Assembly: GCA_963632375.1 (NCBI GenBank)
Contig: CAVGUB010000111.1
Location: 81,913 to 143,369, forward strand
DNA from: Phocaeicola dorei
Lineage (GTDB): Bacteria > Bacillota_I > Bacilli_A > RFN20 > CAG-826
DNA length: 61,457 nt
Reading direction: 5' to 3'
The translations under genes were made by a program, and so were the position numbers. The notes under the pieces are model-generated. The model saw only the letters and a list, made by a program, of their open reading frames with translations. It was not told where the DNA came from and made no database searches. Of the stretch, positions 1-57,279 are shown piece by piece. Each line of letters opens with the position of its first letter. Position 1 is the first letter of the stretch.

Positions 1-64
1 CTATTTCTAGTACTTAAGACTCTAAGGAACTTCCAGCAATTAAGAAAATTATTTTTTTTAATCA

Positions 65-583
65 TTACTGATTAATGGCGCAAGTGGTATTTTTTACGCC
101 TGTTACAACATTGTGAATAAACTCACCACCTTTAAAGGTGTACTCTGCCATTGCTGGCTTGCCAGTTGCTGAGCTAGCGGTCAAATCAATCATGATCGCA
201 AATTTACGAGTAGGATACTCAACGCCCAAGCAACGATCTTGTTTAACGATCAAGGTGTTACCACCCCAAGAATAAGATTCATAAGTAGCACCAAGATTTA
301 CCATCTTGTTTGCACCCATAGAATAAAGGAATGCGCCATCAGTCTTATGTCCTACAATCCAAGCAGAAGCAGCTCTCTGTCACTCAGCATAGAAAGAAGG
401 ATTGCAAAGCAATACCCACTGATTTCCCTGAGGTTTCTCACATTTAGCTGCAAGAGCCTGCATAGCTTTTTCGAAATAACCCATATTGAGTTTGCTAAAC
501 ACATATTTGTTAGCAAAACGCTCAATCTGAGCAATTACTCCGTCAGACGTAATTATCGGCCTTCCGTCTTCATCAAAAGTTTT
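65..583 (-). CDS. Major capsid-like protein, C-terminal part (proposed 3' exon)
   Basis: Frame is open from 583 to TAA 65-67 if TGA 380-382 is read as Trp. It is closed upstream by TAA 587-589 with no start codon at its 5' end. Track ORF 65..319 is its tail. The capsid call rests on position after a scaffold-like gene, combined size and my recognition, not a search. Confidence 0.5.
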
Positions 584-1747
584 CCTTTAGTTAACTTTAT
601 GTCTCCATAAAGAGCAGACTATATCTTAATCTTTTAACGACTTTATATTTGACGTATTTCCATAAAAATAACGTCATCTGTATTTTGCACAATGTTTTCT
701 ATATCCAGCAATAGCTCTACTTAAACAAGATATAGTAACATTTAATTCTTTAGAAGCTTGTGTTAATGAATAAAATGATTTTACAAAAATACCATCATCC
801 GTATAACATGCGATAGCGGTTCCCTGCAAATCCTTTGGTTTATAATTGAAATGTTTTTCATAACTTCAATAATAACCATGAGAAGATCTAATTTTACCAT
901 TACAAGCATTATTTATTGACGTGGAGCAAATACCTGTTTTTTCTGAAGCTTCTGCACAATTTTTATAATATGTAATGTAATTACCTTGTAAATCAAATTG
1001 GTAAACTACTTTTTGTTTTAAAGGTAAAGCTGGGATATTTTTTTTATTTCCTGTAAAGTATTTTCATTGATAATCTTTACAAAACTTAATATCACCTGAA
1101 CATGCAGATTGAATTCCACTACGTGAAATTCCAGTTAATTGAGATGCCTGTGTTATAGAATGATATGTTCTTAAAAAATTGCCATCCATATCATATTGAG
1201 CAACTTCTCGTTCGCTCATAGAGGAAGGTACTTTTCCACCCAAACACATATTATAAACATCTTTTCGCTTTAAAAATTCTCGATTAACTAATTCAGCTTC
1301 TTTTTTATATGCGGCTCTTTTTCCAACTTCGGTATCATCATATTCAAATAATGTTTCTCGAATAAAATTCTCAACACCATATTTTTTAACAGCTTTATGA
1401 AACTTATAAGATTTAAATTGTTTGATACTATTGGGAGAATTATATATGCCACATCCAATATAACCATCATCAATATCTATATTTGTTCTATGAACACCTA
1501 TATAGATTTTATTATTTATTTTATTTGTCGTTTTATAAACTATGTATTTAAACATATAAAAGATTTCAAACATTTAGTCGTTGAACATTCTGCTTAAAGC
1601 AGCCTTTGCTGCTGATCACCTAATCAAATAAATTTTTCAAACCATCATAAATATATTGTGGTATTATTTGCTTAAAGGCTTTCCAGCAATTTGATTGAAT
1701 TCAATATAGTGTCACCACTATATAGCCCTGTAACTTATTAAATGTCA
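584..1747 (-). mobile_element. Putative group I intron interrupting the capsid gene
   Basis: Separates the two halves of one capsid-like reading frame and carries a GIY-YIG ORF. The minus-strand 3' end has a 7-bp hairpin with a GAGA (GNRA) tetraloop (595-612), then 11 nt ending in G next to the proposed 3' exon. Boundaries are +/-15 nt. Confidence 0.45.
893..1573 (-). CDS. GIY-YIG homing endonuclease (intron-encoded), C-terminus disrupted
   Basis: N-terminal YIVYKTTNKINNKIYIGVH...DDGYIGCG matches GIY-YIG. It is followed by repeated V.QYD..G.f...Y.SI.qAS..TGI DNA-binding-type repeats. In-frame TGA at 1064-1066, TAA at 893-895. A third repeat continues to 626 in another frame. Confidence 0.75.
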
Positions 1748-2536
1748 AGGTTTTCCATTAGCGTCCATATTAGACTTACCTCAAAGAAGAGCGTTGTTTC
1801 TAGCCTCCATGAAGCTATCCAAACAATCCTTCTCAGCAGTATTCATCTTATAGACAGGATCTGTACCATCTTTCTCACCTGCACCTATCTGGATAAATAC
1901 ATCCTCCATAGGTTTGTACATAGCAGACATATCTACATCACATCTGTGAGTCGCAATATAAGTGCGGAAATTCTCACAGTTAGATTGGTATTTAGTGTAC
2001 CCTTCGGCATGAAGCTCAGGATGATAATTTGTTACAAAGTGAGTCATATCACCAACTGCAGGTTCTATGATCTGTGAATCATAATCATCATCGAGGATTT
2101 GAGCCACTACCAATCAACAATTATCAGCAATACGTTGAGGACGATTAACAACAATAAACTGCTGTCTTGTTTTCTCGATTACAAACGTATCATACTTCTG
2201 ATAATAATTTTCTCCGAAATAAAATTTAATGTCACCTGCGCATTCACCGCTACCTTCTGTTGCTCTAACGATCGGAAGTCTCTTGATTTTAGAAACTTTC
2301 AAAGACCACTCTACAACGAAAGAAGGAAGAGATTGGAAACCCTTAGGTTTCTTATCACCTGCGAAGCAGTTCATAAGAGCTTCAGTAAGGTGAGTTGCGG
2401 TGTATTGATCATACAACGTAGAAACAATACCCAAGCGAGACGGTTTGCTGCCAAGGAACTTCATGAAATCCTCATAAGTTCTCGTAGCAGGCATATTCGG
2501 ACGAACGGTTGAAAAACCCGAAATTCTAATTGCCAT
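1748..2536 (-). CDS. Major capsid-like protein, N-terminal part (proposed 5' exon)
   Basis: Track ORFs 2114..2536 and 1781..2113 share one frame and are joined by TGA 2114-2116. A further TGA lies at 1781-1783. The frame then dies at TAG 1718-1720. ATG at 2534-2536 sits directly after the scaffold-like gene. Confidence 0.5.
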
Positions 2537-44966: not shown

Positions 44967-45243
44967 TATTCCCGCACTGTGCGGGTGCAGCTGTGCAGTA
45001 AACAGCAAAGACGCTTGTAGACGAGCTGGTGATAGACAACACTATCCAGACATTTGTCTGTAATCAATCTATATGGATTGAGGTTGGAGTACGCCGAAGT
45101 ACAGTAAGCAGCACAGGTTAGGCACTGTGCGGTAATCCACATTTACGCGATGGGGGATGAAGAGCCAACAATGTTTGTATAGATTGATCCGAGAACACGT
45201 TGTTCTCAGGCATTGGGGAAGCCTTAAGACCCGTTTGACTACC

Positions 45244-45723
45244 ATGGCTATTACTATTATGCCTGTAAGTAGCGCATCTGAGGCCCACAAGAATGTGGGC
45301 CTATTCTGTGGTGAACTTTTCAAGTTCACCCAAGGTGAACTTGTGGTCTTCGGACCACAGGACACAAGGGCGTATGGATCTACGCCATTTAAGAAAAGCG
45401 TAATGCTTTCGGCCGTCTGTAAGGACGGCAAGGGGCATAAATTAATATTCCCAATCCAGGCATTGAGGCACAGGCCTCTAAAGCCTGTGAATCCTCAACA
45501 GTGGGACTCCCTGAAAAGGGAGTTCCCTATGTTGAGGGAGGCTATTATAGCCCCTCTGGGACATTTGGAGTATTACTCCAACATCCCAGAAGGGACATAT
45601 AGGATCGAGGTCCGAAAGGTCCTCGATCAGGCAAAAGCCGATGATGGGACTCTCGAGCAGTTCGAGAGGACCATCAACATCTTAGTACCTGCCCCTTCTA
45701 AGAGGGCAGGTTCTAAGAAGTAG
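45244..45723 (+). CDS. Hypothetical protein (159 aa)
   Basis: First ATG of track ORF 45157..45723. G+C-rich; TAG stop. Confidence 0.55.
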   Translation: MAITIMPVSSASEAHKNVGLFCGELFKFTQGELVVFGPQDTRAYGSTPFKKSVMLSAVCKDGKGHKLIFPIQALRHRPLKPVNPQQWDSLKREFPMLREAIIAPLGHLEYYSNIPEGTYRIEVRKVLDQAKADDGTLEQFERTINILVPAPSKRAGSKK

Positions 45724-45789
45724 CCGAAACTAGGGGGAGAGGGGAGTCTCTCCCCCTAGTCACAGGGGAGGTTGTTCTACCCCTGTCTG

Positions 45790-45960
45790 ATGATGGCAGA
45801 ACTATCAAAACAAAACAAACCAGAACAAGAAATGACATTCTGGGATCTCATGCGTGAGGCTGGGAAATATAATCTTCAGGAGGTTGCTCGTCAATACCTG
45901 AAGAGGGATTATGATCCAGCTACTGTGTGGGAAATTCTGGTAGAGGAATACAACCTCTAA
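45790..45960 (+). CDS. Small hypothetical protein (56 aa)
   Basis: First ATG of track ORF 45772..45960. Preceded by G+C-rich hairpins (CTAGGGGGAGAG...CTCTCCCCCTAG). Confidence 0.45.
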   Translation: MMAELSKQNKPEQEMTFWDLMREAGKYNLQEVARQYLKRDYDPATVWEILVEEYNL

Positions 45961-46195
45961 CAGTGTGAGCTGATATCTCACTGTCAACTATCCGGAGAAT
46001 GCATCAACCAATAAAAGGGTCTCCGTTAACAACTTGGCATAATTTTATTTAAAGGGGTGTGGCTTGCGCTACGCTCCTTATTTTTTTAAGGTGGAGGGGG
46101 AGCGTGCTTCGCTGCAGCTCGCACCGCTCGCCCTGCGGGGCACAAAGACATTTGCCAATATGTAGTGTATAACAATATTATTGCAAAATTTAATT

Positions 46196-46747
46196 ATGGC
46201 ATTGAGTAAATCTGACTCGCCAGTTGTATACACACAGACTGGCGTGACTGCCGTAACAGGCAGTCTTGAGAGCCTAAAGGGCTCTCACGTATCCTTCAAC
46301 GGATACGGTATCGATGTGAACGAGACCGTCACATTCGGTACTATTGAAGAGTACGGTCTCGATGGGAACATTAAGAGAGTTCCAACCTATAACGGTTCAA
46401 GCCGTTATAGCATCTTGGTACGTGTAAATCGTACCAAAAACGGAGTCACTAAAGACTCCTGGTTCAACATGGGCGTTTTATCACGTCAGTTGAACGCTGC
46501 TGATGGCAAATCTCTCCCTGTAGATAAATTCAGGGAAGATATGATTGCAATCGATGACGATTATAATCGATTGATTGCAATCGCGGGGAAAACCATCAAG
46601 GGTGTCGAAACGAAAAAAGCGTTTCGCCCTGTCTTTGAGCGTTCAAAGGACGCTCAAGGCAAACCGGTCTTCACTGTCGTGAAGAACGAGGACGGCTCCC
46701 GTAAAATGGAGCCTGCAGAGTACGTAGTTGTTGATTATGTTAAATAA
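46196..46747 (+). CDS. Hypothetical protein (183 aa)
   Basis: First ATG of track ORF 46181..46747. TAA stop. Confidence 0.6.
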   Translation: MALSKSDSPVVYTQTGVTAVTGSLESLKGSHVSFNGYGIDVNETVTFGTIEEYGLDGNIKRVPTYNGSSRYSILVRVNRTKNGVTKDSWFNMGVLSRQLNAADGKSLPVDKFREDMIAIDDDYNRLIAIAGKTIKGVETKKAFRPVFERSKDAQGKPVFTVVKNEDGSRKMEPAEYVVVDYVK

Positions 46748-46787
46748 TCAACAATTTACTGTACTCGGTGACCACTGAGAGAATTAT

Positions 46788-46837
46788 ATCATATCCAATG
46801 TAGGCAAATTGTTTGTCTGCAATGGATATGATTTTTT
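46788..46837 (+). terminator. Intrinsic terminator (21-bp imperfect hairpin plus T6)
   Basis: ATCATATCCAATGTAGGCAAA ttg TTTGTCTGCAATGGATATGAT TTTTT. Confidence 0.7.
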
Positions 46838-47309
46838 AAATCTCAGAGGTTACTGAACTTTAGAACCTTGTGGTGAATGTTATATCATCATTAGGTTCCA
46901 ATATCTTTAATCCAGAGTGGAGTGATATCCTATCTGGGTTCTAATGCATTCTTGCATTATTTTTATGTTTTTTTTATTTTTTTTGGACATCAAATCATTG
47001 ATCCCAATTCTAGTTACCGTGTTTTGCGCACTTGAGCGGTCGTTAGTTTGGATAAATCAATGGTTTGATATTATGTGTAAACGAAAAGTTAAAGTGCGCC
47101 ATTTACCCTGAGTGAGATATCAGGTAGCATAGAGATACATCTGTGCGAACTTAGGTTCCATGTAACAGTGGAGTTTCGAGCCTAAGAGTACAAGTTCGAA
47201 ACCTTGTACTAAATCCGAAGATGCTGAAGAAGTATCTGAATGTATCAACCCTATAATAGGTGTGTAACTTGCATGCATCTAGACTATTATGGGGTAACTT
47301 CCTTTATAA

Positions 47310-47474
47310 GCAATACCTTTACGTGGTTTGGAAGATAAGTAGACTTATGTCGAAACTAAAATTGCTGAACACAATCAATTTCTTTAGTCATAATTCTGTA
47401 GTTTTTGTGGTTTAAGTAGTTTTTCTTTTTTCCAATTGATTGTGTTTAACTGCACAGCAGTGAATGCTCTGCAG
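47310..47474 (+). ncRNA. Structured RNA candidate, unit 1 of a tandem pair
   Basis: Closing stem GCAAT/ATTGC around ACCTTTACGTGGT...ATAAGTAG...CGAAACTAAA. Then a 13-bp hairpin (47368-80/47434-46), then hairpin CTGCACAGCA gtgaa TGCTCTGCAG. Confidence 0.5.
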
Positions 47475-47487
47475 AATGGCATCGATG

Positions 47488-47599
47488 ATACATACCTTTA
47501 CGTGGTGATGCTATAAGTAGGTTTATCCGAAACTAAATGTATTAGAGTCATGGTAGTCTTAACACCTACAGCAGTGAATGCTCTAGGTGTTTTCTTTTG
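47488..47599 (+). ncRNA. Structured RNA candidate, unit 2, ending in an intrinsic terminator
   Basis: Closing stem ATACA/TGTAT around the same conserved strands. Terminal hairpin CACCTACAGCA gtgaa TGCTCTAGGTG, followed by TTTTCTTTT, 28 nt before ATG 47628. Confidence 0.5.
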
Positions 47600-47627
47600 A
47601 AGTTTAACAAATTAAAACAATATAACA

Positions 47628-48074
47628 ATGAAAGTAAGTGAAGTTACAAAACTAGCGTTTGATTTTGGATCGAAGAAATATCTCATCGAGGAGAACGGAG
47701 ATCTCAAACTCTTAACCCTTCTAAAGAAGGTTGAACCTTCTGCAATTTGTTCAGAGATGCATAAATCTCTGATTGCTCGAATGACTCACTGTCGTGAACA
47801 GATTGAGCAGAAAGAGGTAGTATTTTGTGAACCCGATTTTATTGGGTTCTCAGATGGTACACATTTTTCTGCACATGCATATAATGCAATGGAGTCTTTG
47901 AGTAACATATTATCTTCAGTAAAAGTATCTAATCCCATGAAATTTATTCAACGATTGAATGCTTTTGAACTCATTCAGTTACTAAAGGCTGAATCTGAGT
48001 TTGGTGGCCGTTTAAAAAACGAAGTCATCAATATAATCTCAAATTGTATTGCTTGTAACTACAAAAATGATTAG
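47628..48074 (+). CDS. Hypothetical protein (148 aa)
   Basis: Intact ORF, TAG stop. Confidence 0.6.
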   Translation: MKVSEVTKLAFDFGSKKYLIEENGDLKLLTLLKKVEPSAICSEMHKSLIARMTHCREQIEQKEVVFCEPDFIGFSDGTHFSAHAYNAMESLSNILSSVKVSNPMKFIQRLNAFELIQLLKAESEFGGRLKNEVINIISNCIACNYKND

Positions 48075-48075
48075 T

Positions 48076-48228
48076 ATGATGGTTCGTTTTTTTAGATGGC
48101 TGCTCAAAGTTGAGCATGCCATCTACTGTTTTACAAATTGCAGAATTGAATTGCCGTTTCATAAACAGTACTATAAATACTGTCGTACTAAATATGAAGC
48201 GTATATAACGAATAAAACCACTCGTTAA
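48076..48228 (+). CDS. Small Cys-containing ORF (50 aa)
   Basis: ATGATG start 2 nt after the previous stop. TAA lies inside the terminator hairpin. Confidence 0.3.
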   Translation: MMVRFFRWLLKVEHAIYCFTNCRIELPFHKQYYKYCRTKYEAYITNKTTR

Positions 48229-48238
48229 GAGTGGTTTT
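48214..48238. terminator. Bidirectional hairpin terminator
   Basis: AAAACCACTC gttaa GAGTGGTTTT, between convergent genes. Confidence 0.65.
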
Positions 48239-48401
48239 ATTTTGTTTTATATTAAATGTAATTCTGCATCAACAACTTCACGTTGTACAATTTGTTGTAA
48301 TTTCATATTATTTCATTTTAATAATACAAATATACAATAATTTTTGTACGGCGATGAGTAACAATGAGTTAACAGTTTATCTCTATCTATTATTATTGAC
48401 A

Positions 48402-48926
48402 CTAGTTTTGGATTGGTTCTGATTGAAATGTAACGATTAAATCTTTACGTTTTTTCAAGTCACCTTTTCAAAACATTTCTGGGTTGATAGTATATTCTCC
48501 TCTTAACGTTTTGATTTCACCTGTAGTTTTATCTACAGTTGATTCTGGATATAGTGCATGTACTTCAACCAATTGATTAATTGATTGCGTTAATGTACTT
48601 TTCTTGATATCAAGTTCAGCCATTATATCAACACGTCTTCCAGGTGATAGAGATACTTTACCTGTTTCCCATTCAGCGTATTCTAACAACTTATAAAGTA
48701 TTTTTAATGTTGTTAGGCTTTTAATACCATACATCCAACTAACACAGTTAAGAAATACCATATAAAATTTATCGTCATCATCGACTTTAAAGTTAATTTT
48801 CTTTTCTGTAGTTTGGACACGAGTTCTACCTTGTTCATCAATAACTTTTTGTTCTGATGAATATACTGTGAATTTTTTAGACATTTTTAAACTTTGTTTA
48901 TTTATAGTGATCTTTTGTTTATTCAA
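48402..48926 (-). CDS. Winged-helix DNA-binding protein (Rep/regulator-like)
   Basis: Track ORF 48468..48926. Its TGA (48468-48470) may be Trp, which extends the frame 22 codons to TAG 48402-48404. An iteron array lies upstream of its start. Confidence 0.5.
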
Positions 48927-48977
48927 AAATAAACAAAGTTTACGACTTTAACAAATAAAGTTTAAAAAAAAATAAAC

Positions 48978-49037
48978 AAAGTTAGCTCACAGTAGCCAAA
49001 AGTTAGCTCACAATGGTCGAAAGTTAGCTCACAATGG
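48978..49037. repeat. Three direct repeats at 21-bp period (iteron-like)
   Basis: AAAGTTAGCTCACA(G/A)T(A/G)G at 48978, 48999 and 49020. The AAATAAACAAAGTT motif also recurs, once inverted, around the gene start. Confidence 0.75.
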
Positions 49038-49129
49038 ACATTTTTCTTCGTTAATTATCTAGTATGTAAATACTTAGATAGTTTTCTCTTCTATATATAA
49101 TTAGTTTAATCAAAAAATACAAAACAACA

Positions 49130-49522
49130 ATGAAAACATTTGAACAATTCAAAGCATGGCTGAAAGACATTCACAGGTATGAATTCTTTACAAGCTTCAT
49201 GGAACCAAACGTCGATCCTTGTGATTTTTATCGCCAGTATGGCGAAAAATCAATTCTGGTAGCATCTAAACATGTACCCTGTGAAAAAGATTACTATGAG
49301 TTGAGAAGACTCGACATAATGTTTAGAGGGTTCCTAAACGGATATCCTGTATATGTACTTGATACAAAGAAGACTATAATAGCTAGCCTTTATAAGTCTG
49401 ACGATGTTACAAGTTCGGTTATCCGTGAGTTCAGGAGTTTATACCCAGGTGCGGAATTTGACGAAGATTGTTATGCTGTTTATGCATATAAACAGGAGAA
49501 AATTCTTCGAAAAATTGAGTAA
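49130..49522 (+). CDS. Hypothetical protein (130 aa)
   Basis: Intact ORF, TAA stop. Confidence 0.6.
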   Translation: MKTFEQFKAWLKDIHRYEFFTSFMEPNVDPCDFYRQYGEKSILVASKHVPCEKDYYELRRLDIMFRGFLNGYPVYVLDTKKTIIASLYKSDDVTSSVIREFRSLYPGAEFDEDCYAVYAYKQEKILRKIE

Positions 49523-49525
49523 AAA

Positions 49526-49578
49526 ATGGGGCAAAAACAGGCGTAGACATCACTCTATGCCTGTTTTCCCATTTTTTT
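49526..49578 (+). terminator. Intrinsic terminator
   Basis: ATGGGGCAAAAACAGGC ... GCCTGTTTTCCCAT followed by T7. Confidence 0.65.
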
Positions 49579-49827
49579 AATCTTCCTTTTTTCAAAAAAA
49601 ATATGGAATATTATTCATACCTCATTTTGAAAAACTCCAAACCCTATGGGGTTCGTCGTTTTTCAAATCCAAATGCTGTAAACTTCTACATTAAATACAC
49701 ATTACCGCGTATTTGTGCAGCTAAATATTCATACATATGTTTTTCTTATTCGAAATCTTAATCGGTTTTATTTTGTTTTGTTTGTCTATATTTTTTATAG
49801 TCGCAATATTTATACAATCATTATTTC

Positions 49828-49974
49828 ATGACAAGAAAAATTAAAGTGACTCGTAAAATCAAAGTGATTAACGAGCAAGGAAAAGAAACTTTTATACTTT
49901 CTACTTTTCCATGTAAAGTAAATGCTGCTGTTCCATTTGATCATAATATGGTGAAATATGAAAGGGCATTGTAG
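49828..49974 (+). CDS. Small basic ORF (48 aa)
   Basis: ATG 49828, TAG 49972-49974. Overlaps the next ORF by 17 nt. Confidence 0.3.
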   Translation: MTRKIKVTRKIKVINEQGKETFILSTFPCKVNAAVPFDHNMVKYERAL

Positions 49975-50299
49975 TCTTTATTCTTTTGACTCAGGAAAAC
50001 AATTTCTTGGTTATACTACTTCTTCTGAAGTTATAACCTTTCCTGAGGCTTATCCTATTACTATGGATATTTCAGATGTAAAACCTTCACACTATCCAGA
50101 TCTTGAATTAATCAATCTGGATGAACTTTTTACAACTAAAAGAACTACTGATAAAAGATTGGCTGAAGAACATATCACAACATTCACTGATTTGTACTAT
50201 TCCAATTACCTTATCAAACTTAATCTTCTTAAAAAGCCTGCAAATATCCGCCAACTTGTGTTAAACAAATATGCAGATGTGATGGAATATGAAGATTAA
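49958..50299 (+). CDS. Hypothetical protein (113 aa)
   Basis: Intact ORF. Overlaps the clpP start. Confidence 0.55.
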   Translation: MKGHCSLYSFDSGKQFLGYTTSSEVITFPEAYPITMDISDVKPSHYPDLELINLDELFTTKRTTDKRLAEEHITTFTDLYYSNYLIKLNLLKKPANIRQLVLNKYADVMEYED

Positions 50300-50867
50300 A
50301 GACTATTTAATATCTCCAACAATAATTGAAGAACGCAAACTTAACGTTACTTCAATTAGCGTGTTTGATCGTTTGTTAATGGATCGTATCATCTTTCTTG
50401 GTACAGAAATCGATGACGATGTTGCGAACATCATTCAGGCACAATTACTTTACTTATCCTCTTTGTCTTCTGAGGATATTACTCTTTACATTAACTCTCC
50501 AGGAGGTAGTGTTACTGCTGGTTTAGGTATCTATGATACTATTCAACACATTAAACCAAAAGTAAATACAATTTGTACTGGTTTAGCAGCTTCTATGGCT
50601 GCTGTTCTTCTTTGTTCTGGTAATACTCGTTCTGCATTACCACATTCAAAAATGATGATTCATCAGCCAATGTCTGCAGTTGCAGGTCAAGCATCTGATA
50701 TCATTATTGAAGCTGAAGAAATTAAAAAATGTAAAGATGAACTTGCAAAACTAATAGCACATCATTGTAAACAAGACTTAATCAAAGTTCTTAAAGACAT
50801 AGATCGTGACTTTTGGTTAACTGCAAGTGAAGCTGTTCAATATGGACTCATAGATAAAGTCCTTTAA
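50289..50867 (+). CDS. clpP: ATP-dependent Clp protease proteolytic subunit ClpP
   Basis: RIIFLGTEIDDDVANIIQAQLLYL...LYINSPGGSVTAGLGIYDTIQ...GLAASMAA...MIHQP...WLTASEAVQYGLIDKV aligns along its whole length with cellular ClpP, including the Ser and His catalytic motifs. Confidence 0.9.
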   Translation: MKIKDYLISPTIIEERKLNVTSISVFDRLLMDRIIFLGTEIDDDVANIIQAQLLYLSSLSSEDITLYINSPGGSVTAGLGIYDTIQHIKPKVNTICTGLAASMAAVLLCSGNTRSALPHSKMMIHQPMSAVAGQASDIIIEAEEIKKCKDELAKLIAHHCKQDLIKVLKDIDRDFWLTASEAVQYGLIDKVL

Positions 50868-51162
50868 AACTACAAATCATCCTGTAATGACGGGACAAAA
50901 TAGTGCTTCGTAGCATTGACACAAACCTAGGTGAAAGTTGATGTACTGCATGAATCCAAATATGTTTATTGGCCAAATGATAATAGGATTCGTTCTTTAC
51001 AGTTAAAACATGATAATACTGTACAGATTATATTGTAGTTTGGTGTGGAGAAGGTGATACTTCTCCACATTTCTAATAGAAGGTTTTGTCAGAACCTCCG
51101 TTCTCTATAATACCGATTTTCATTTATTAACGCCTACTTTTTCACGAATAAATCGGTATTTA

Positions 51163-51226
51163 AATATGTTAGTTTAGTGGTAAAACAAACTTTTAGTTTA
51201 CATAGGTTCGATTCCTATACATATTT
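51163..51226 (+). ncRNA. tRNA-like gene with truncated anticodon arm (tRNA pseudogene or mimic)
   Basis: Acceptor AATATGT/ACATATT, D arm GTTT-AGTGGTA-AAAC and T arm ATAGG-TTCGATT-CCTAT are canonical. Only 15 nt lie between the D and T arms, folding as AAACT-TTT-AGTTT (5-bp stem, 3-nt loop). Total length 64 nt. Confidence 0.5.
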
Positions 51227-51244
51227 CTAAAAACAACACAAATT

Positions 51245-51490
51245 ATGGAAATAGTGTTAACAGAAGGTTGTGTAGTTTGGGGTACAACCATCAATGGAAA
51301 AGATATTAAAGATTACTCCAAAGAAGAATTAAAAGATATAATTCTTAACATCTTTAATAAAAAAGATTTCTCTGAATCAGATTACAATGAAATCTTGTCT
51401 GAAATCTTACATATAGCAGGAACATATAATTATTGTTACACCTGTGAAGAATGTGGTGATTCTGTTTGCGAATATAAATTATCAATATAA
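51245..51490 (+). CDS. Hypothetical protein (81 aa) with C-terminal CxxC pairs
   Basis: Intact ORF with CYTCEECGDSVC. Confidence 0.55.
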   Translation: MEIVLTEGCVVWGTTINGKDIKDYSKEELKDIILNIFNKKDFSESDYNEILSEILHIAGTYNYCYTCEECGDSVCEYKLSI

Positions 51491-51966
51491 TGAATATAGC
51501 TTTAGTTGCACATGATGTAAGAAAAAAAGAACTTCTTGAATGGGTCAAATATAATTGGGCTACATTATCAGAACATAATCTATATGCTACCGGTACTACT
51601 GGTAAACTTATATCTGATATTGAAGTTGATTTAGATGACTTAAAAGGAGTTTCTTATCCTTATTGTCCCTTCTTAGGTAAAGTTAATCGTGTATTATCTG
51701 GACCTTTAGGAGGAGATCAACAAATTGGAGCATTAATCGCTGAAGGTGATATTGATGTTCTAATTTTCTTTTGTGATAATCTTGCAGTACAAGGACATCA
51801 AAATGATGTTAGTGCACTATCAAGATTAGCTTCCCTTTATAATATCGCATTTGCTACCAATAGAACAACTGCTGATATGATACTCACATCTCCATTATTT
51901 GATAATCCAAATTATGAGAGAATTATTCCTAAATCTATTGACAACTATAAAAACCGGAAATTATAA
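51490..51966 (+). CDS. mgsA: Methylglyoxal synthase
   Basis: IALVAHD...LYATGTTG...LSGPLGGDQQIGALIAEGDIDVLIFFCD...GHQNDV.AL.RLA..YNIAFATNRTTAD matches E. coli MgsA motif for motif, including the catalytic His/Asp positions. One roughly 20-aa insertion. Confidence 0.85.
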   Translation: MNIALVAHDVRKKELLEWVKYNWATLSEHNLYATGTTGKLISDIEVDLDDLKGVSYPYCPFLGKVNRVLSGPLGGDQQIGALIAEGDIDVLIFFCDNLAVQGHQNDVSALSRLASLYNIAFATNRTTADMILTSPLFDNPNYERIIPKSIDNYKNRKL

Positions 51967-52115
51967 TGACATATAAAGTAACTTTTTCAGAAAAAGGTCA
52001 TAAAATGCAAACCACTTATACTAAAGACAATGCATCTGAACAAGAAATTGTTGATTGGTTTGGTTTAAATGAATCAGATATTGATTGGTATAAAATAGAA
52101 AAATTATGCGAATAA
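51966..52115 (+). CDS. Small ORF (49 aa)
   Basis: ATG overlaps the mgsA TAA as TAATG. TAA at 52113-52115. Confidence 0.35.
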   Translation: MTYKVTFSEKGHKMQTTYTKDNASEQEIVDWFGLNESDIDWYKIEKLCE

Positions 52116-52393
52116 CATTTGATACAATCAACCAAGTTCCTAAAAATGAACAAGGTTTACTTCTTGCACTTTATAAAGATTTAGATGAATTAAATTCTAA
52201 AATTCATAAAAAACTTTATTTTGTTTGGGAAGATACTCATACAGAATTTTCTCCAGAATGGTGTGATCCTTGTCCCGATTATTATCACATGTATATCATT
52301 TACTGTGATAATGAATCTATCGGTTCTTATATGACCATTGAAGAATTAGATTATGCAATGTTACTACTTCATGATTTTGTAGACATAATATAA
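52106..52393 (+). CDS. Hypothetical protein (95 aa)
   Basis: Intact ORF. Confidence 0.55.
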   Translation: MRITFDTINQVPKNEQGLLLALYKDLDELNSKIHKKLYFVWEDTHTEFSPEWCDPCPDYYHMYIIYCDNESIGSYMTIEELDYAMLLLHDFVDII

Positions 52394-52710
52394 TGAGAGA
52401 ATTACATTTTTATTCTAATTTATGTGATATTGATAATGTATCAGAATGGGATTTAGATACAATGTGTACTGATTATGTAACTACGAAAAAAGCCATTGAA
52501 GATTCTTCTGAACGTATTGTTAAAACTACTCAAATGAGTTTTCTTATCAATACTTGGGATTATATTGACTCTGGTTTTGTTGTGTTTTTGCATAATAATT
52601 CTAATTGTTATATAATAAAAGAACACATGCCTGAAATAAGTAAAGATATTACACGTAGTATGAATATCTTAAAGCTTTATTTAGGTAATACATTTGGAGA
52701 AATATGTTAA
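52393..52710 (+). CDS. Hypothetical protein (105 aa)
   Basis: Intact ORF. Start overlaps the previous stop. Confidence 0.55.
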   Translation: MRELHFYSNLCDIDNVSEWDLDTMCTDYVTTKKAIEDSSERIVKTTQMSFLINTWDYIDSGFVVFLHNNSNCYIIKEHMPEISKDITRSMNILKLYLGNTFGEIC

Positions 52711-53213
52711 ATATACCATATTATAATAATCCAATTCCTCTAGAATTATATAATAAATTAACTTTATATGGTTTTTCGTTACAAGAATCTTGTCCAACTT
52801 ATAAACTTGTTTTAGATTGGTTAAATACTAAACAAATTTATATGACATTTTTCTCTTGGTACGTTGACGAAGATTATCAATGGATTTATAAAATAGTATA
52901 TTTTGTTAAAAACAATCCAAATCTTCATGTAGAAACGGGAATTGGTACAACATTTGCAAATACATTTGAACAATGTATTGATTACTTAATAAACTTAAAT
53001 ATTATAACAATGTTAAAAGAATATTTAGTTAATGTTACATATATAACCGTAATTCCAGTTAAAGTTACGGCTAGTAATGATGAAGATGCTGAGGATATGG
53101 CTGTATCTAAAGCAGAAAACATCAATTCACTAGAAAATGTATCAATGTATTTTGATAGTACAGAAATAATGAAAATTACACCTTTGGATAAAATTGATTT
53201 TGAAGGTGAATAA
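52704..53213 (+). CDS. Hypothetical protein (169 aa)
   Basis: Intact ORF. Confidence 0.55.
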   Translation: MLNIPYYNNPIPLELYNKLTLYGFSLQESCPTYKLVLDWLNTKQIYMTFFSWYVDEDYQWIYKIVYFVKNNPNLHVETGIGTTFANTFEQCIDYLINLNIITMLKEYLVNVTYITVIPVKVTASNDEDAEDMAVSKAENINSLENVSMYFDSTEIMKITPLDKIDFEGE

Positions 53214-53282
53214 TATATCGCAGTGATGCGTTGTTCATAATTGTTTGATTTGTTTGCGAGAAGTGTTTAGCACTTCTCTGAT

Positions 53283-53366
53283 AGCTCTATGTCGAAATAG
53301 GTAGCCGAGTCAGATTTAGGATCTGATGTTTGTAAAAACGTAAGGGTTCGATTCCCTTTAGAGCTA
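53283..53366 (+). tRNA. tRNA-Leu (anticodon TAG), class II
   Basis: Acceptor AGCTCTA/TAGAGCT. Anticodon arm TCAGA-TTTAGGA-TCTGA with anticodon at 53317-53319. Long variable arm (GTTT-GTAA-AAAC). T arm AAGGG-TTCGATT-CCCTT. Discriminator A. Confidence 0.85.
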
Positions 53367-53393
53367 CAAGAGTTTTTATATACTCATTTTTTA

Positions 53394-53559
53394 GGGTTAC
53401 TTCAGCATAAAATTTTTATTAATGTATATTTTTATTAATTTTTAACGTTACGTAACCCGATTATTTTTGGAATAGTTTCAGCATGTTTATTTTTGTATTC
53501 TTACATAAACATAGAGGGGGCTGCCCTATTCCGTATCAAAGTCCCCTCTATGTTTTTTT
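53394..53559 (+). ncRNA. Structured RNA candidate between tRNA-Leu and the DUF2828 gene
   Basis: Stem GGGTTAC (53394-400)/GTAACCC (53452-58). GGAATAG (53469-75) is complementary to CTATTCC (53526-32), which sits inside the loop of the 11-bp terminator hairpin ACATAGAGGGG/CCCCTCTATGT (53509-53553) plus T7. TTCAGCAT is repeated. Confidence 0.35.
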
Positions 53560-53583
53560 GATAATTAAAAAAATTAAAAAAAT

Positions 53584-54978
53584 ATGGATAAATTTCTTGA
53601 AGCAATCAGTACAAAAAATACTTATACTGATAACGGAGCTTTAACTAACAGTACTTCTTTAAATAAGTGCTTAGACTTTTTTTCAATAGCAGGTAATCAT
53701 ATTGAGAATATAGAATCTTTTGAAGCAGCTTATGGAGAAGATCCACAACTTGCTTTAAGAATTTTATTTTGGAGTAGAGATTGTAGAGGTGGTGCTGGTG
53801 CTCGTAAAAACTTTATTGCTGTAATGAAGAAACTTCAAGTTGAAAAACCTGATGTTTTTTCTAAAGTCTTTAAGTTTATACCTGAATTTGGCTATTGGAA
53901 AGATATTTACAATCTAAAGCCCACACAAGAAGTTGTTAGTTTTGTTGCTAAAACATTAAAGAATGATACAGATCATTCTTTATGTGCTAAATACTGTCCT
54001 CGTAAAGGAGAATGGTTTTATCATCTTCGTGTTCGTTTTAAAATGTCTTTAGCTCAATTTAGACATTTTATTGTTAAGAAAACTCAAGTAGTTGAAAACC
54101 AAATATGCAAGAAAGAATGGAATGAAATAGAATATTCTTCTGTTCCTTCTGTGGCAAATCTTCGTTACAAAGAAATATTTACAAAATATGATTTTAAACG
54201 TTATAGGGAGTATATTAAATCTGTTCTTAAAGGAGAAAATAAGATTAATTCCTCTGTTTTGTTTCCAAATCAAATATTTCATAATTGGGACATTGGTTTA
54301 AGAAAGGATGGGGATACTGCTAAAGCCTTGTGGGATAATCTTCCTAATTATATGGAAGGTTGTACAGAAAGAATTCTTCCTGTATGTGATGTGTCAGGTT
54401 CTATGTGTGGTACTCCATTAGAAGTTTCTATTGCTTTGGGTTGTTATATTTCAGAACGTAATGAAGGACCTTTTAAAGATGCTTTTATAACGTTTAGTGG
54501 AAAACCTCAAATTAATATCTTAACTGGTGATATTATATCACGTTTCTCGCAGTTATCTAATGCAGATTGGGGATATAATACAAATCTTCAAGCTGTATTT
54601 GATTTGATTTTAAAACGAGCATTGGAAAACAATCTTTCTAATGACGATATGCCATCTAAGATATTGATCATAAGTGATATGCAATTTGACAAAGCCTTGA
54701 AAAATAGAGAAAGATTTGGAAATCCCGAAATCACTAATTATGAGGCAATTAAAGATGCATATGCTTCGTATGGTTATAACCTTCCTGGTATAATCTTTTG
54801 GAATGTTAATGGAGATGCTGGTAAAGTTCCTGTTACAATGAAAGACTTTAACACTGCCCTTGTGTCAGGATATTCTCCTAGTATTCTAACATCCATTCTT
54901 AAAGGTAAAGTATTAACTCCAATAGACGTTATGCTAAATACCGTAAATAGTGAACGATATAAAAACATAAAATTATAA
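53584..54978 (+). CDS. DUF2828-like protein with C-terminal vWA (MIDAS DxSxS) domain
   Basis: N-terminus ...YTDNGALTNSTSLNKCLDFF...LALRILFWSRDCRGGAGARKNF and VCDVSGSMCG fit the DUF2828/vWA architecture as I recall it. Confidence 0.6.
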   Translation: MDKFLEAISTKNTYTDNGALTNSTSLNKCLDFFSIAGNHIENIESFEAAYGEDPQLALRILFWSRDCRGGAGARKNFIAVMKKLQVEKPDVFSKVFKFIPEFGYWKDIYNLKPTQEVVSFVAKTLKNDTDHSLCAKYCPRKGEWFYHLRVRFKMSLAQFRHFIVKKTQVVENQICKKEWNEIEYSSVPSVANLRYKEIFTKYDFKRYREYIKSVLKGENKINSSVLFPNQIFHNWDIGLRKDGDTAKALWDNLPNYMEGCTERILPVCDVSGSMCGTPLEVSIALGCYISERNEGPFKDAFITFSGKPQINILTGDIISRFSQLSNADWGYNTNLQAVFDLILKRALENNLSNDDMPSKILIISDMQFDKALKNRERFGNPEITNYEAIKDAYASYGYNLPGIIFWNVNGDAGKVPVTMKDFNTALVSGYSPSILTSILKGKVLTPIDVMLNTVNSERYKNIKL

Positions 54979-55052
54979 AAATGGTATAAAAATTGAAGTA
55001 TATATAAAAATATAGAATGCCAGAATGATGAAATGGAAGCCATGAGGGACTT

Positions 55053-56035
55053 TTGCGGTAGACATAAAGATTTTTTGTCTTTGTGTTTGCCATATTCTAA
55101 ATTATTTTGTATATTTGTACGATCTTTTAACAATTAAATTTTATTAAAATGAAAAATAAGTACACAAAAGAAGATTTAGAAAATGTAGCAAAACAATGTT
55201 TGTCGTGACGACAAATGCTTTTACATTATGGATTAAGAGAGACTGGAGGAAATTATACAGCTATGCATAATAGATGTAAAAAATATGAGATAGATACTTC
55301 TCATTTTACTGGTCAGGGTTGAAATAAAGAAGGACATGAGAATTTTGCTGGTAATATAGATTTGCAAAAAAGATTCTCTATTCATAAGAAAAAACAACCT
55401 TCTTCTAAAACTAAAGAAGTTTTATTAATGCATAATTTAAAAGAAAATAAGTGTGAAATTTGTGGATGTACAGAATGACAAGGAAAACCAATTATTCTTC
55501 AATTACATCATAAAAATGGTAATCCATTTGATGATAGATTGGAGAATCTTCAAATTCTTTGTCCTAATTGTCACTCACAAACGGATACTTATTGTAAAAG
55601 ACATAAAATACGAAAATCTATAAATTTGAGTGCACTGAAGGAAACTTCGGATGTAGAACTACCCTAATTCGGTGAAAATCCTAAATCCTAATCAAGGTCG
55701 TAATGAAAACACGACGTTAAATAAACTAGGAAGTTGGATTGGACAACGCCGAGCTAAATTGAATATTAAAGAAGAGACACACGGAAGGCCCGTCAATTAG
55801 TATTCATAAATGTGTAGAGCACATAGAGGTAGAACCTAAGTTAGAAATTATGAGTATCCCCAGACTCGGTGACAGGATTATATCCTCAGGGACCAATAAG
55901 GGTGTAAGGAGAAAGTAACTTGCAAGATTTCTAATACGGTTAAGACATGTGCCGGACTACAACAACTTGAATGCGAAATTTTACAGCACCATTTAAGACT
56001 GGTTCAAGTTGGCTATGGTAACATAGAGTAGTAGG
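55053..56035 (+). mobile_element. Putative group I intron in tRNA-Leu(UAA) carrying an HNH ORF
   Basis: 983 nt sit between anticodon positions 34 and 35. It ends in G and has a CTATG-GTAA-CATAG hairpin (GNRA tetraloop, 56013-56026) 9 nt from its 3' end. About 370 nt of ORF-free sequence follow the ORF. Confidence 0.55.
55149..55667 (+). CDS. HNH homing endonuclease (172 aa)
   Basis: ...YEIDTSHFTGQG-W-NKEGH... and LQLHHKNGNPFDDRLENLQILCPNCHSQTD (HNH). Three in-frame TGA at 55206, 55320 and 55476. TAA at 55665-55667. Confidence 0.85.
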
Positions 56036-56091
56036 AAAATCCCTTGGGCAGCAATGCCCGTGTGGGTTCGAATCCCACTTCTGGTACTTAT

Positions 56092-56162
56092 TGAGATGTA
56101 GTATAATGGTAATACAAAAGATTTTGGTTCTTTTATTCAAGGTTCGAATCCTTGCATCTCAA
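56092..56162 (+). tRNA. tRNA-Gln (anticodon TTG)
   Basis: Acceptor TGAGATG/CATCTCA. D arm GTAT-AATGGTA-ATAC. Anticodon arm AAAGA-TTTTGGT-TCTTT. T arm CAAGG-TTCGAAT-CCTTG. Confidence 0.85.
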
Positions 56163-56196
56163 CGAGTTTTATACTCATGGTATTTTTATTTGACAA

Positions 56197-56231
56197 ATGG
56201 AGTATGCTGTGAAGTATACTCCATTTTTTTT
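56197..56231 (+). terminator. Intrinsic terminator after the tRNA cluster
   Basis: ATGGAGTAT gctgtgaagt ATACTCCAT followed by T8. Confidence 0.65.
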
Positions 56232-56446
56232 AATTTTATTAAAATTATATAAAATGGAATTTACTTTATCAAATATTAAATTTTGGTTATCATCTAATAT
56301 TAAAGATTATCTCATTTTAAGATATTCTCAAAATGATGTTTAACCTGATATCGAAATTAATGATATGTTCAATAATTTATTAAAAGCTTTGAACATTAAG
56401 AATACTGATATAAATCAAGAACTTATATTTAAAAATTTTAAATAAA

Positions 56447-56779
56447 ATGGATAATTCAGAACTTAAATCATTGATGTATGAATATGTAGTTGATTTGTTA
56501 AGCTATGAAGATTATCACAATTTCGGAAGTCCTGAGAAATTTCATAAATGGGTTGATGAAAATTATGAGCCAATAAAAAAGTCAAATCTTATCAAAGGAC
56601 AGATTTATGATGGAATTTGTAGAAATGCCTCAAGAGCAACTTGGGATGGTGAAAAGTTTCATTATGAAAGAACAAAATTTAGAAGAACTTATGATGAAGT
56701 AATAAATCATTATGAAGATGACGATGGTTATGGTTATGATGTTTTTGTCCCCATAAAAAGAATTAACGATTGTGATTAA
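56447..56779 (+). CDS. Hypothetical protein (110 aa)
   Basis: Intact ORF. Confidence 0.55.
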   Translation: MDNSELKSLMYEYVVDLLSYEDYHNFGSPEKFHKWVDENYEPIKKSNLIKGQIYDGICRNASRATWDGEKFHYERTKFRRTYDEVINHYEDDDGYGYDVFVPIKRINDCD

Positions 56780-57268: not shown

Positions 57269-57279
57269 CATTATAAGTT

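What the first reader, a model, noticed from the sequence alone, without database searches (positions are those of the whole stretch)
65..2536. Major capsid-like gene interrupted by a ~1.2 kb GIY-YIG-carrying element
The N-terminal frame (2536 to about 1748) runs into TAG 1718-1720. The C-terminal frame (583 to 65) is open without any start codon and is closed upstream by TAA 587-589. Between them sits a GIY-YIG endonuclease ORF. The element's 3' end has a 7-bp hairpin with a GAGA tetraloop (595-612) and then 11 nt ending in G. The tRNA insert ends with the same architecture. The sequence GGAAAAC occurs just inside both proposed junctions (AATGGAAAACCT|TGA... and ...CTAAAGG|AAAACTTTT). An essential, highly expressed structural gene that depends on splicing is a notable constraint on the phage.
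Basis: partly seen in the sequence, partly recalled or inferred. Interest (0 to 1): 0.65.

Follow-up and report, generated by a model that had tools for sequence, protein, structure and literature searches.

The report
Capsid gene split by self-splicing introns

Summary
On the minus strand, exon 1 of a Crassvirales-type major capsid protein (MCP) gene is 2536..1748. A 1164-nt group I intron is 1747..584. Exon 2 starts at 583. Joining the exons gives a protein 76% identical to intact 473-aa MCPs, with no gap at the junction (GKP|K).

The intron has the expected features: a P1 helix with a U·G pair at the 5' splice site, the conserved core elements, a terminal G, and 17 base pairs with compensatory changes across four orthologous introns. 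Its P8 loop holds a 309-aa I-TevI-like GIY-YIG/NUMOD endonuclease gene (1555..626). That gene is under purifying selection and has three in-frame TGA=Trp codons.

The correction concerns the 3' end. The gene does not end at 65. Exon 2 ends at 96, and a second group I intron starts at 95 and runs off the window. The "stop" TAA 67-65 lies in that intron's P2 GUAA loop. The last ~50 codons (exon 3) lie outside the window and are seen in a 96%-identical contig.

Group I introns in MCP genes and TGA recoding of late genes were described for crAss-like phages by Yutin et al. 2021. This is therefore a new member of a known kind. Splicing itself is inferred; no RNA data were found.

The parts
1748..2536 (-). 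MCP exon 1 (263 codons). In-frame TGA at codons 141 and 252 is read as Trp.
   Evidence: Translation. Aligned to residues 1-260 of the intact homologue P0003, 78% identity. The TGA codons fall on conserved Trp columns: W141 is invariant in all 14 homologues, codon 252 is Trp in 12 of 14. Pfam Crass_capsid PF23898, 50 bits against a cut-off of 27, for the joined protein.
584..1747 (-). Group I intron 1, 1164 nt. It starts UGAC... after the exon's last U and ends ...AAAGG with terminal G584.
   Evidence: Rfam RF00028 matches 1753..1565 (48.5 bits) and 733..595 (31.8 bits). Orthologous introns sit at the same codon in L004, L010/L020/L021, L015 and L023. 96.5% of cells are paired and 17 pairs show compensatory change.
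1726..1750 (-). P1 helix. Exon CCU (1750-1748) plus intron UG (1747-1746) pairs with the internal guide CAGGG (1730-1726). U1748·G1728 is the wobble pair at the 5' splice site. AAGUU (1736-1732) could pair with exon 2 nt AACUU as P10.
   Evidence: Read from the sequence. All 5 P1 pairs are invariant in four orthologues. P10 is inferred only.
1565..1723 (-). Intron 5' core, in order: P2 (1723-1704, GUGA loop), P3 5' strand (1699-1692), P4 (1688-1683 / 1615-1610), P5, P5a and P5b (1679-1618), P6 (1602-1590), P7 5' strand (1580-1575), P3 3' strand (1572-1565).
   Evidence: Coordinates. Per-helix pair counts: P2, P5, P5a and P6 show compensatory changes. Rfam alignment.
626..1555 (-). Homing endonuclease gene in the P8 loop: 309 codons plus TAA 628-626, with three in-frame TGA=Trp. 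It has an N-terminal GIY-YIG domain followed by NUMOD1 / I-HmuI-NUMOD-like DNA-binding modules. An upstream in-frame ATG at 1573 is probably not the start.
   Evidence: phrog_314 homing endonuclease, E 2.7e-26. NUMOD1 and PF22083. TIGR01453, E 6e-11. AlphaFold model with pLDDT 89.5, whose best PDB matches are the I-TevI catalytic domain 1mk0/1ln0. Orthologues start at MYKYIVYK. dN/dS 0.16-0.29.
584..635 (-). Intron 3' core: P8 3' strand AAAAGAU (635-629, pairing with 1564-1558), J8/7 plus P7 3' strand UAAGAUAUAGUCUG (628-615), P9 hairpin with GAGA loop (612-595), and an 11-nt tail ending in the terminal G584.
96..583 (-). MCP exon 2 (488 nt, codons 264 to 426 and the first two bases of a Val codon). 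In-frame TGA at codon 331 is read as Trp.
   Evidence: Aligned to P0003 residues 261-423, 72% identity. There is no gap at the junction GKP|K. The exon ends at GGCGU, the 5' strand of intron 2's P1.
1..95 (-). The first 95 nt of a second group I intron, cut by the window edge. P1 is GGCGU (100-96) / GCGCC (81-77). P2 is UUAAUCA-GUAA-UGAUUAA (75-58). The P4 motif AAUUGCUGGAAG is at 41-30. The apparent stop TAA 67-65 is in the P2 loop.
   Evidence: The homologues' extra C-terminus is absent from the window. A weak Rfam match covers 1..105. The P4 motif matches exactly. P1/P2 are 100% paired, with 6 of 7 P2 pairs compensatory across four same-site introns. The 96%-identical contig L023 shows the whole 1339-nt intron and exon 3.

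Best explanation
The window carries the 5' two-thirds of the major capsid protein gene of a TGA=Trp-recoded crAss-like phage. The gene is interrupted by mobile group I introns.

Intron 1 (1747..584) folds into a standard group I core. P1 pairs the last exon bases CCU with the guide CAGGG, with a U·G pair at the splice site. P2 and P9 are capped by GNRA loops. P3 to P8 and the P3/P7 pseudoknot are present, and the intron ends in a terminal G.

Inferred mechanism: after transcription of the late operon, an external guanosine attacks after U1748. The freed exon 1 then attacks after G584. This ligates ...GGA AAA CCU|AAA ACU UUU... in frame. A second intron, starting at 95, must be removed in the same way to attach the last ~50 codons, which lie outside the window.

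The P8 loop of intron 1 encodes an I-TevI-like GIY-YIG endonuclease with NUMOD-type DNA-binding modules. Inferred role: it cuts intron-less capsid alleles during co-infection so that repair copies the intron in (homing). Its three in-frame TGA codons mean it can only be made once UGA is read as Trp, which is the late-gene condition.

Shown here: the sequence anatomy, exon continuity, RNA covariation, the protein fold, and purifying selection on the endonuclease. Inferred: the splicing itself, the homing, and the timing.
For: 1. Exon continuity. The joined protein matches 321 homologues. The best intact 473-aa MCPs are 76% identical over 97% of the query. G261, K262, P263 and K264 are invariant and there is no gap at the junction. 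The Pfam Crass_capsid match spans the junction, residues 88-319.
2. Ribozyme match. Rfam RF00028 hits cover both sides of the ORF: 48.5 bits (E 1.3e-10) and 31.8 bits (E 1.3e-5). An ORF-less sibling intron of the same family in L023 scores 90.6 bits over the full model, against a gathering score of 50.
3. Covariation. On the ORF-deleted alignment of four same-site introns, 96.5% of cells pair, against 31-41% when partners are slid. 17 pairs have changes on both sides, and 0 of 500 shuffles reach any measure. The minimum-free-energy z-score is -3.2.
4. Splice-site rules. The U·G pair in P1 and the terminal G are conserved in all orthologues. All intron-bearing alleles read CCT|AAA.
5. Endonuclease. 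The ORFs are intact in five lineages, and dN/dS is 0.09-0.29.
6. Recoding. TGA aligns with conserved Trp columns. In-frame TGA occurs through the minus-strand block (about 1-44.5 kb and a few minus-strand ORFs beyond it) and in the two intron ORFs, while the other plus-strand ORFs from 45 kb on have 0-1.
7. Second intron.
8. Independent assemblies carry the same arrangement: L001, L023, and the contigs of runs X1-X3.
9. Published precedent: PMC7886860.
Against: - There is no RNA evidence. No public RNA run was found to hold the sequence, and four RNA runs laid on it gave zero reads.
- Neither Rfam hit of the window's own intron reaches the gathering score alone (48.5 and 31.8 against 50), because the 930-nt ORF splits the model.
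- Pfam GIY-YIG PF01541 does not hit the endonuclease at E<=0.01, and TIGR01453 is below its cut-off. The Foldseek E-value for I-TevI is only 0.02, although the probability is 1.00 and the TM-score normalised to the target is 0.67.
- Exon 3 and most of intron 2 are inferred from a 96%-identical relative, not from the window itself.
- Only four distinct orthologous introns were available for the covariation count.
Confidence: 0.9

Rival explanations
1. A free-standing homing endonuclease gene has split the capsid gene into two separately translated polypeptides that assemble in trans. This is the situation known for some split phage genes, such as nrdA split by mobE in Aeromonas phage Aeh1 (from my own knowledge).
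For: An intact endonuclease ORF under selection sits between the halves. Splicing has not been observed.
Against: The ORF is flanked on both sides by group I core elements with covariation support. Exon 2 has no ATG for its first 32 codons, and TAA lies two codons upstream. The junction obeys the U·G and terminal-G rules and restores invariant residues without a gap.
Confidence: 0.04
2. The intron is a decaying remnant. The capsid gene in this genome is a pseudogene, or the contig is a mis-assembly, so nothing functional is encoded.
For: The data come from metagenome assemblies. One Logan contig (L001) breaks 29 nt inside the intron.
Against: The same arrangement appears in independent assemblies and samples. 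All core helices are intact and kept by compensatory change. The exons have no stops other than TGA at Trp positions. The endonuclease has dN/dS of about 0.2. The same site is occupied in phages whose endonucleases are only 62-74% identical to the window's.
Confidence: 0.03
3. It is a group I intron, but it is not self-sufficient. Splicing in vivo needs the intron-encoded protein acting as a maturase, or a host factor. The endonuclease may no longer promote homing.
For: Translation from ATG 1555 starts directly after the P8 5' strand, and the ORF's last codons overlap the P8 3' strand and J8/7. Translation and folding therefore compete. Orthologous introns have stayed at one site across diverged phages, which is also compatible with vertical inheritance.
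Against: The ORF-less 284-nt sibling in L023 keeps a complete core and a full-length Rfam match, which suggests the RNA needs no encoded protein. GIY-YIG enzymes are not known maturases (my own knowledge). Presence/absence differences between 96%-identical strains indicate ongoing mobility.
Confidence: 0.15

Closest known systems
Group I introns in MCP genes of Delta/Zeta-group crAss-like phages (Yutin et al. 2021, PMC7886860)
   Same: Both involve a Crassvirales-type MCP gene fragmented by group I introns that carry endonuclease ORFs. Both show TGA=Trp recoding confined mostly to late genes and also present in intron ORFs. Relatives of the window lie on contigs of 145-204 kb, matching the large Zeta genomes.
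   Different: The paper identified introns through their protein domains and gave no RNA structure or splice-site mapping. Here the exact junctions, helices, covariation and insertion-site recurrence are worked out. Group membership of this window (Zeta or another) was not tested by phylogeny.
Phage T4 td intron with I-TevI (the classic GIY-YIG group I intron)
   Same: Both are self-splicing group I introns in an essential phage gene. Both carry a GIY-YIG catalytic domain joined to modular DNA-binding elements. The best structural match of the model is the I-TevI catalytic domain.
   Different: From my own knowledge, the T4 td ORF sits in P6a and the intron is subgroup IA2, with P7.1/P7.2. Here the ORF sits in P8, and only a single hairpin lies between P3' and P7'. 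The DNA-binding part here is made of NUMOD1 repeats rather than I-TevI's zinc finger plus HTH. Sequence identity to I-TevI is about 18-20%.
Bacillus phage SPO1/SP82 DNA-polymerase introns with I-HmuI/I-HmuII
   Same: The endonuclease ORF is looped out of P8 (my own knowledge). NUMOD-type DNA-binding modules are shared (PF22083 hit; 1u3e appears).
   Different: Those enzymes are HNH nickases, not GIY-YIG, and the host gene is a polymerase, not a capsid gene.
Group I introns of gut 'Jug' jumbo phages (PMC12880540)
   Same: These are gut Bacteroides-type phages with many essential genes split by group I introns. Splicing there was confirmed by metatranscriptome reads for 37 of 76 introns.
   Different: It is a different phage clade, uses the standard genetic code, and has mostly small (~206 nt) ORF-less introns.

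Membership tests
Group I intron (Rfam RF00028) | Conserved catalytic core (P3-P8 with the P4, P6, P7 and J8/7 consensus elements) | tested here: met
   Rfam aligns 1753..1565 to model positions 5-158 and 733..595 to the 3' part, including AAGAUAUAGUC. The helices are located.
Group I intron (Rfam RF00028) | A single match reaching Rfam's gathering score (50 bits) | tested here: inconclusive
   The window's intron gives 48.5 and 31.8 bits as two pieces because the 930-nt ORF splits the model. The ORF-less sibling of the same family in L023 gives 90.6 bits over the full length. The tool cannot take an ORF-deleted construct as input.
Group I intron (Rfam RF00028) | P1 with a U·G wobble at the 5' splice site, and a terminal G at the 3' end | tested here: met
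   CCU|UG pairs with CAGGG, and U1748·G1728 is invariant in four orthologues. The intron ends in G584, and the orthologues also end in G.
Group I intron (Rfam RF00028) | Helices maintained by compensatory change | tested here: met
   17 of 65 pairs have changes on both sides. 96.5% of cells are paired, against 31-41% for slid controls. For intron 2's P2, 6 of 7 pairs are compensatory. Only 4 sequences were available for each count.
Group I intron (Rfam RF00028) | Removal restores an uninterrupted conserved reading frame | tested here: met
   The alignment to 14 homologues has no gap at the junction. The Pfam match spans the junction.
Group I intron (Rfam RF00028) | Guanosine-dependent self-splicing | not testable with these tools
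   No RNA run holds the sequence. A wet-lab assay is needed.
GIY-YIG homing endonuclease (I-TevI-like) | GIY...YIG motifs and the conserved Glu/Asn of the catalytic domain | tested here: met
   The sequence reads YIVYKTTNKINNKIYIGV. Y7, Y18, G20, E86 and N102 are invariant in 40 homologues. The position of the catalytic Arg could not be assigned with confidence.
GIY-YIG homing endonuclease (I-TevI-like) | GIY-YIG fold | tested here: met
   The AlphaFold model has pLDDT 89.5. The top three PDB matches are I-TevI catalytic-domain chains (1mk0, 1ln0_B, 1ln0_A), with probability 0.99-1.00 and target-normalised TM-score 0.61-0.67. The E-value is only 0.02.
GIY-YIG homing endonuclease (I-TevI-like) | Curated profile match (Pfam PF01541 or TIGR01453) above the cut-off | tested here: not met
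   There is no PF01541 hit at E<=0.01. TIGR01453 scores 42.7 bits against a cut-off of 56. One homologue, P0202, carries a precomputed PF01541 assignment. The protein is therefore a divergent member.
GIY-YIG homing endonuclease (I-TevI-like) | Site-specific cleavage of the intron-less allele, and homing | not testable with these tools
   Indirect evidence only: intron presence/absence differs among related phages.
Crassvirales major capsid protein (Pfam PF23898) | Profile match above the curated cut-off | tested here: met
   50 bits against a cut-off of 27, E 2e-13. Nearly all listed homologues carry PF23898.
Zeta group of crAss-like phages (Yutin 2021) | Placement in the Zeta clade in an MCP, TerL or portal phylogeny | not tested
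   Circumstantial only: TGA=Trp in late genes, relatives on 145-204 kb contigs, and high intron density. No Zeta reference sequences were at hand.

The most novel reading that the evidence does not exclude
One intron lineage may be actively hopping within the capsid gene itself. The 96%-identical strain L023 carries an extra 284-nt ORF-less intron only 27 nt downstream of intron 1. It sits behind another ...CCU, uses the same CAGGG guide, and still holds the last codons of the endonuclease (…GNTSDINSL*). The window lacks it and reads CCG at that spot. Related phages have up to six or seven interruptions at about eight recurrent MCP sites. This would mean guide-sequence-directed ectopic insertion (reverse splicing) and ORF loss are happening on the time-scale of strain divergence. 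Because the endonucleases need UGA read as Trp, their expression would be gated to the recoded late phase.
Probability: 0.3. Interest if true: 0.5.

Novelty: new member of a known kind. Interest (0 to 1): 0.3.

Why it matters
For annotation: the capsid gene here would be called as three or four fragments, or missed entirely, by standard code-11 gene callers. The true product needs TGA=Trp and at least two splicing events, and its C-terminus lies outside the window.

For biology: virion production depends on ribozyme folding in the late transcript. The endonuclease can only be translated under the recoded genetic code.

The general phenomenon is already published for crAss-like phages. The added value here is the base-exact splice sites, a covariation-supported structure, the list of recurrent insertion sites, and a strain-level presence/absence polymorphism. 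Together these could serve to study intron mobility in an abundant gut phage group.

Tried and rejected
- Rfam at gathering threshold on the whole window found only tRNAs. E-value mode was needed.
- An exact-match search for the window's left end in IMG/VR found nothing.
- A pattern scan for the intron's P1-P4 region also returned L018 and L022. These are chance matches inside a release-factor-2-like coding sequence with no downstream core, and I discarded them.
- Sequence searches of the endonuclease against PDB, as a single sequence and as a 4-sequence profile, gave only spurious repeat or capsid matches. The fold comparison was needed.
- One homologue search timed out.
The code-11 ORF 65..319 worked.
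- Searches for RNA runs gave no holder, and four RNA runs gave zero reads.
- GenBank phage records have no close relative. The best MCP match is 46% identical.
- The GGAAAAC repeat at both junctions was considered as a target-site duplication or recognition motif. I rejected this because it is not conserved in the orthologues, and group I introns make no duplications (my own knowledge).
- My first exon-identity comparison was contaminated by other introns in the comparison loci, so I do not use those numbers.
- An intein was rejected because the insert has stop codons in the MCP reading frame.
- Rfam found no group I match in the tRNA insert.
Full report
**What is in the sequence**

The window is AT-rich (32% GC). 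On the minus strand, an ORF starts at ATG 2536. Its frame contains TGA at codons 141 and 252 and then meets TGA 1747-1745 and TAG 1720-1718. A second open frame runs from 583 down to TAA 67-65. It has TAA 589-587 two codons upstream and no ATG for its first 32 codons. Between the two lies a long ORF that is also broken by TGA. These include the hairpin CTTTATG-GAGA-CATAAAG at 612-595, the 11-nt tail ending in G584, and the two GGAAAAC copies.

**Genetic code**

I joined 2536..1748 to 583..65 and read TGA as Trp. All three TGA codons then fall on Trp columns of homologous proteins: W141 and W331 are invariant, and codon 252 is Trp in 12 of 14 homologues. Across the window, in-frame TGA codons are frequent in the minus-strand block, about 1-44.5 kb. 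They are almost absent from the plus-strand genes from 45 kb on; the exception is an ORF inside a tRNA insert. This is the late-gene TGA=Trp recoding described for crAss-like phages (PMC7886860).

**The gene is a Crassvirales major capsid protein and the junction is exact**

- The joined protein matches Pfam Crass_capsid PF23898 (50 bits against a cut-off of 27). The match runs across the junction.
- It finds 321 homologues. The best are intact 473-aa proteins, 76% identical over 97% of the query.
- In the alignment the junction ...NMDANGKP|KTFDEDGRPI... has no gap, and G261, K262, P263, K264 are invariant.
- Intron-less alleles read ...GGCAAACCT|AAGATTTATGAT... (L002). All intron-bearing alleles read CCT|AAA.

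**The insert is a group I intron**

Rfam RF00028 matches both ends of the insert. The 5' match is 1753..1565 (48.5 bits, E 1.3e-10, model positions 5-158). The 3' match is 733..595 (31.8 bits, E 1.3e-5) and includes AAGAUAUAGUC and the P9 hairpin. Both are still significant against the whole window. Neither reaches the 50-bit gathering score alone, because the 930-nt ORF splits the model. An ORF-less intron of the same family in a sister strain scores 90.6 bits over the full model.

I mapped the helices as follows:
- P1: exon CCU plus intron UG with CAGGG 1730-1726. U1748·G1728 is the wobble pair at the splice site.
- P2: 1723-1704, GUGA loop.
- P3: 1699-1692 with 1572-1565.
- P4: 1688-1683 with 1615-1610.
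- P5, P5a, P5b: 1679-1618.
- P6: 1602-1590.
- P7: 1580-1575 with 624-615, forming the usual pseudoknot with P3.
- P8: 1564-1558 with 635-629.
- P9: 612-595, GAGA loop.
- Terminal G: 584.

Orthologous introns with orthologous ORFs occupy the same codon in L004, L010 (=L020, L021), L015 and L023. I aligned four distinct ORF-deleted introns (A2) and counted pairs for this structure. 96.5% of cells form standard pairs, against 31-41% when the partners are slid. 17 of 65 pairs have changes on both sides, in P2, P5, P5a, P6, P8 and P9. No shuffle out of 500 reaches any measure. The ORF-deleted RNA folds with z = -3.2, and the centroid recovers P2, P5-P5b, P8 and P9. With only four sequences this is modest but consistent support.

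**The intron ORF**

The orthologues all start at MYKYIVYK. The window's start is therefore most likely the second ATG (1555), directly after the P8 5' strand. The stop TAA 628-626 lies in J8/7.

The 309-aa protein matches:
- phrog_314 homing endonuclease, E 2.7e-26
- two NUMOD1 modules and an I-HmuI-type NUMOD-like module
- TIGR01453 'group I intron endonuclease', E 6e-11, which is below its cut-off

Pfam GIY-YIG itself does not hit. An AlphaFold model of residues 1-160, built on 40 homologues, has pLDDT 89.5. Its three best PDB matches are chains of the I-TevI catalytic domain, with probability 0.99-1.00 and target-normalised TM-score 0.61-0.67. Y7, Y18, G20, E86 and N102 are invariant. It is a divergent I-TevI-like GIY-YIG enzyme. 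The ORF is intact in five lineages, keeps its TGA=Trp codons at QW-, YYW- and RW- motifs, and has dN/dS of 0.09-0.29. It is the only such gene in the window.

**Correction: a second intron, and the gene runs off the window**

Intact homologues continue for about 50 residues after ...HNVI-GV (GGKSGLASGEVSSPVAG...). The window instead reads ...HNVVTGVKNTTCAINQ*. No exon 3 exists anywhere in the window. The break at residue 423/424 of P0003 recurs in L005-7, L010, L015 and L021, which carry a separate downstream exon.

The window sequence after GGCGU (100-96) has these features:
- a guide GCGCC (81-77) that pairs with the exon end, including a U·G pair
- a P2 hairpin UUAAUCA-GUAA-UGAUUAA (75-58)
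- the P4 motif AAUUGCUGGAAG (41-30), identical to that of intron 1

Across four same-site introns, P1 and P2 are 100% paired, and 6 of 7 P2 pairs change on both sides. The apparent stop TAA 67-65 is the UAA of the GUAA loop.

A Logan contig 96% identical to the window (L023) shows the whole arrangement. Its intron at this site is 1339 nt and carries its own roughly 400-aa GIY-YIG/NUMOD ORF. It is followed by exon 3, A|GGTGGTGCA... = (V)GGATGLASGEVSSPVAG...FWA*. Intron-less alleles read GGT GTA GGT GGT, as expected. The window's gene therefore has at least three exons: 2536..1748, 583..96, and a third outside the window. The last point rests on a near relative, not on the window itself.

**Context in relatives**

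Mapping an intact MCP onto related IMG/VR and metagenome loci shows interruptions at about eight recurrent positions: P0003 residues about 28, 175-179, 260, 270-276, 314-317, 368, 423 and 443-448. Single genes have up to six or seven interruptions (L013, L015), on contigs of 100-204 kb.

L023 has one intron that the window lacks. It is a 284-nt ORF-less group I intron 27 nt downstream of intron 1, inserted after GGAAGACCT. It uses the same CAGGG guide and keeps a remnant of the endonuclease C-terminus. The window reads GGAAGGCCG at that spot.

**Comparison with what is known**

Yutin et al. 2021 reported the following:
- Zeta-group genomes (the largest, 145-192 kb) carry up to 14 introns, with an MCP split into five fragments.
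- TGA=Trp recoding affects mainly late genes and also intron ORFs.

Splicing of comparable introns was confirmed by metatranscriptomics in another gut phage clade (PMC12880540). The present case fits this description and is a new member of a known kind. GenBank phage records hold no close relative; the best MCP match is 46% identical.

**What is not shown**

No RNA data exist for this phage in the runs I could reach. Splicing, homing and timing are therefore inferences from anatomy and from established group I and GIY-YIG biology. I did not assign the intron subgroup. A single hairpin lies between P3' and P7' (no P7.1/P7.2), and both L2 and L9 are GNRA loops.

Noticed in passing
window 55019-56087 (+): A class-II tRNA gene is split by an insert of about 981 nt. 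The insert holds an HNH-type ORF (…CEICG…HHKNGNPFDDRLENLQILCPNCH…) with three in-frame TGA codons. ARAGORN calls the gene tRNA-Stop(tta). Moving the insert boundary by 2 nt gives a perfect 5-bp anticodon stem and the loop CUUAAAA, which would be tRNA-Leu(UAA) interrupted between nt 34 and 35. From my own knowledge, that is the classic cyanobacterial/plastid tRNA-Leu intron position. The insert ends with the hairpin CUAUG-GUAA-CAUAG plus 9 nt ending in G. Rfam finds no group I match there even at E<=1.
   Followed up: partly
window 1-44500 (-) versus 45000-61457 (+): In-frame TGA (read as Trp) occurs in most minus-strand ORFs of the 1-44.5 kb block (up to 14 per ORF) and in a few minus-strand ORFs beyond it. 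Apart from the HNH ORF inside the tRNA insert, the plus-strand ORFs from 45 kb on have 0-1. No UCA-anticodon suppressor tRNA was found in the window.
   Followed up: partly
window 51163-51226 (+): A tRNA-like element matches Rfam tRNA at 47.7 bits. Its anticodon arm is reduced to AAACU-UUU-AGUUU, with no normal 7-nt loop. ARAGORN does not call it.
   Followed up: no
window about 61408-61457 (+): The 5' part of another tRNA (anticodon loop UUUUGGU, so UUG, Gln-type) is cut by the right end of the window. A complete tRNA-Gln(UUG) is at 56092-56163.
   Followed up: no
L023 3062-3345 (a sister strain, 96% identical to the window): An extra 284-nt ORF-less group I intron (Rfam 90.6 bits) sits 27 nt downstream of intron 1, leaving a 9-codon micro-exon (KTFDEDGRP). 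It has the same CAGGG guide and a remnant of the endonuclease C-terminus. It is absent from the window, which reads CCG instead of CCT at that site.
   Followed up: partly
L013, L015, L005-L012 (IMG/VR contigs of 100-204 kb): MCP genes of related phages are interrupted at about eight recurrent positions, with up to six or seven interruptions per gene. L015 also has a 10-codon micro-exon after the intron-1 site.
   Followed up: partly
L010 9559-9816 and L021 2279-2022: The 258-nt insert at the intron-2 site shares P1 and P2 with the window's intron 2. Downstream it has a different sequence that lacks the AAUUGCUGG motif. This may be a different or rearranged core behind the same guide region.
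   Followed up: no
L001 (Logan contig from SRR13434610), end at 10013: A contig identical to the window stops 29 nt inside intron 1. This is consistent with assembly graphs breaking at repeated intron-core sequences.
   Followed up: no
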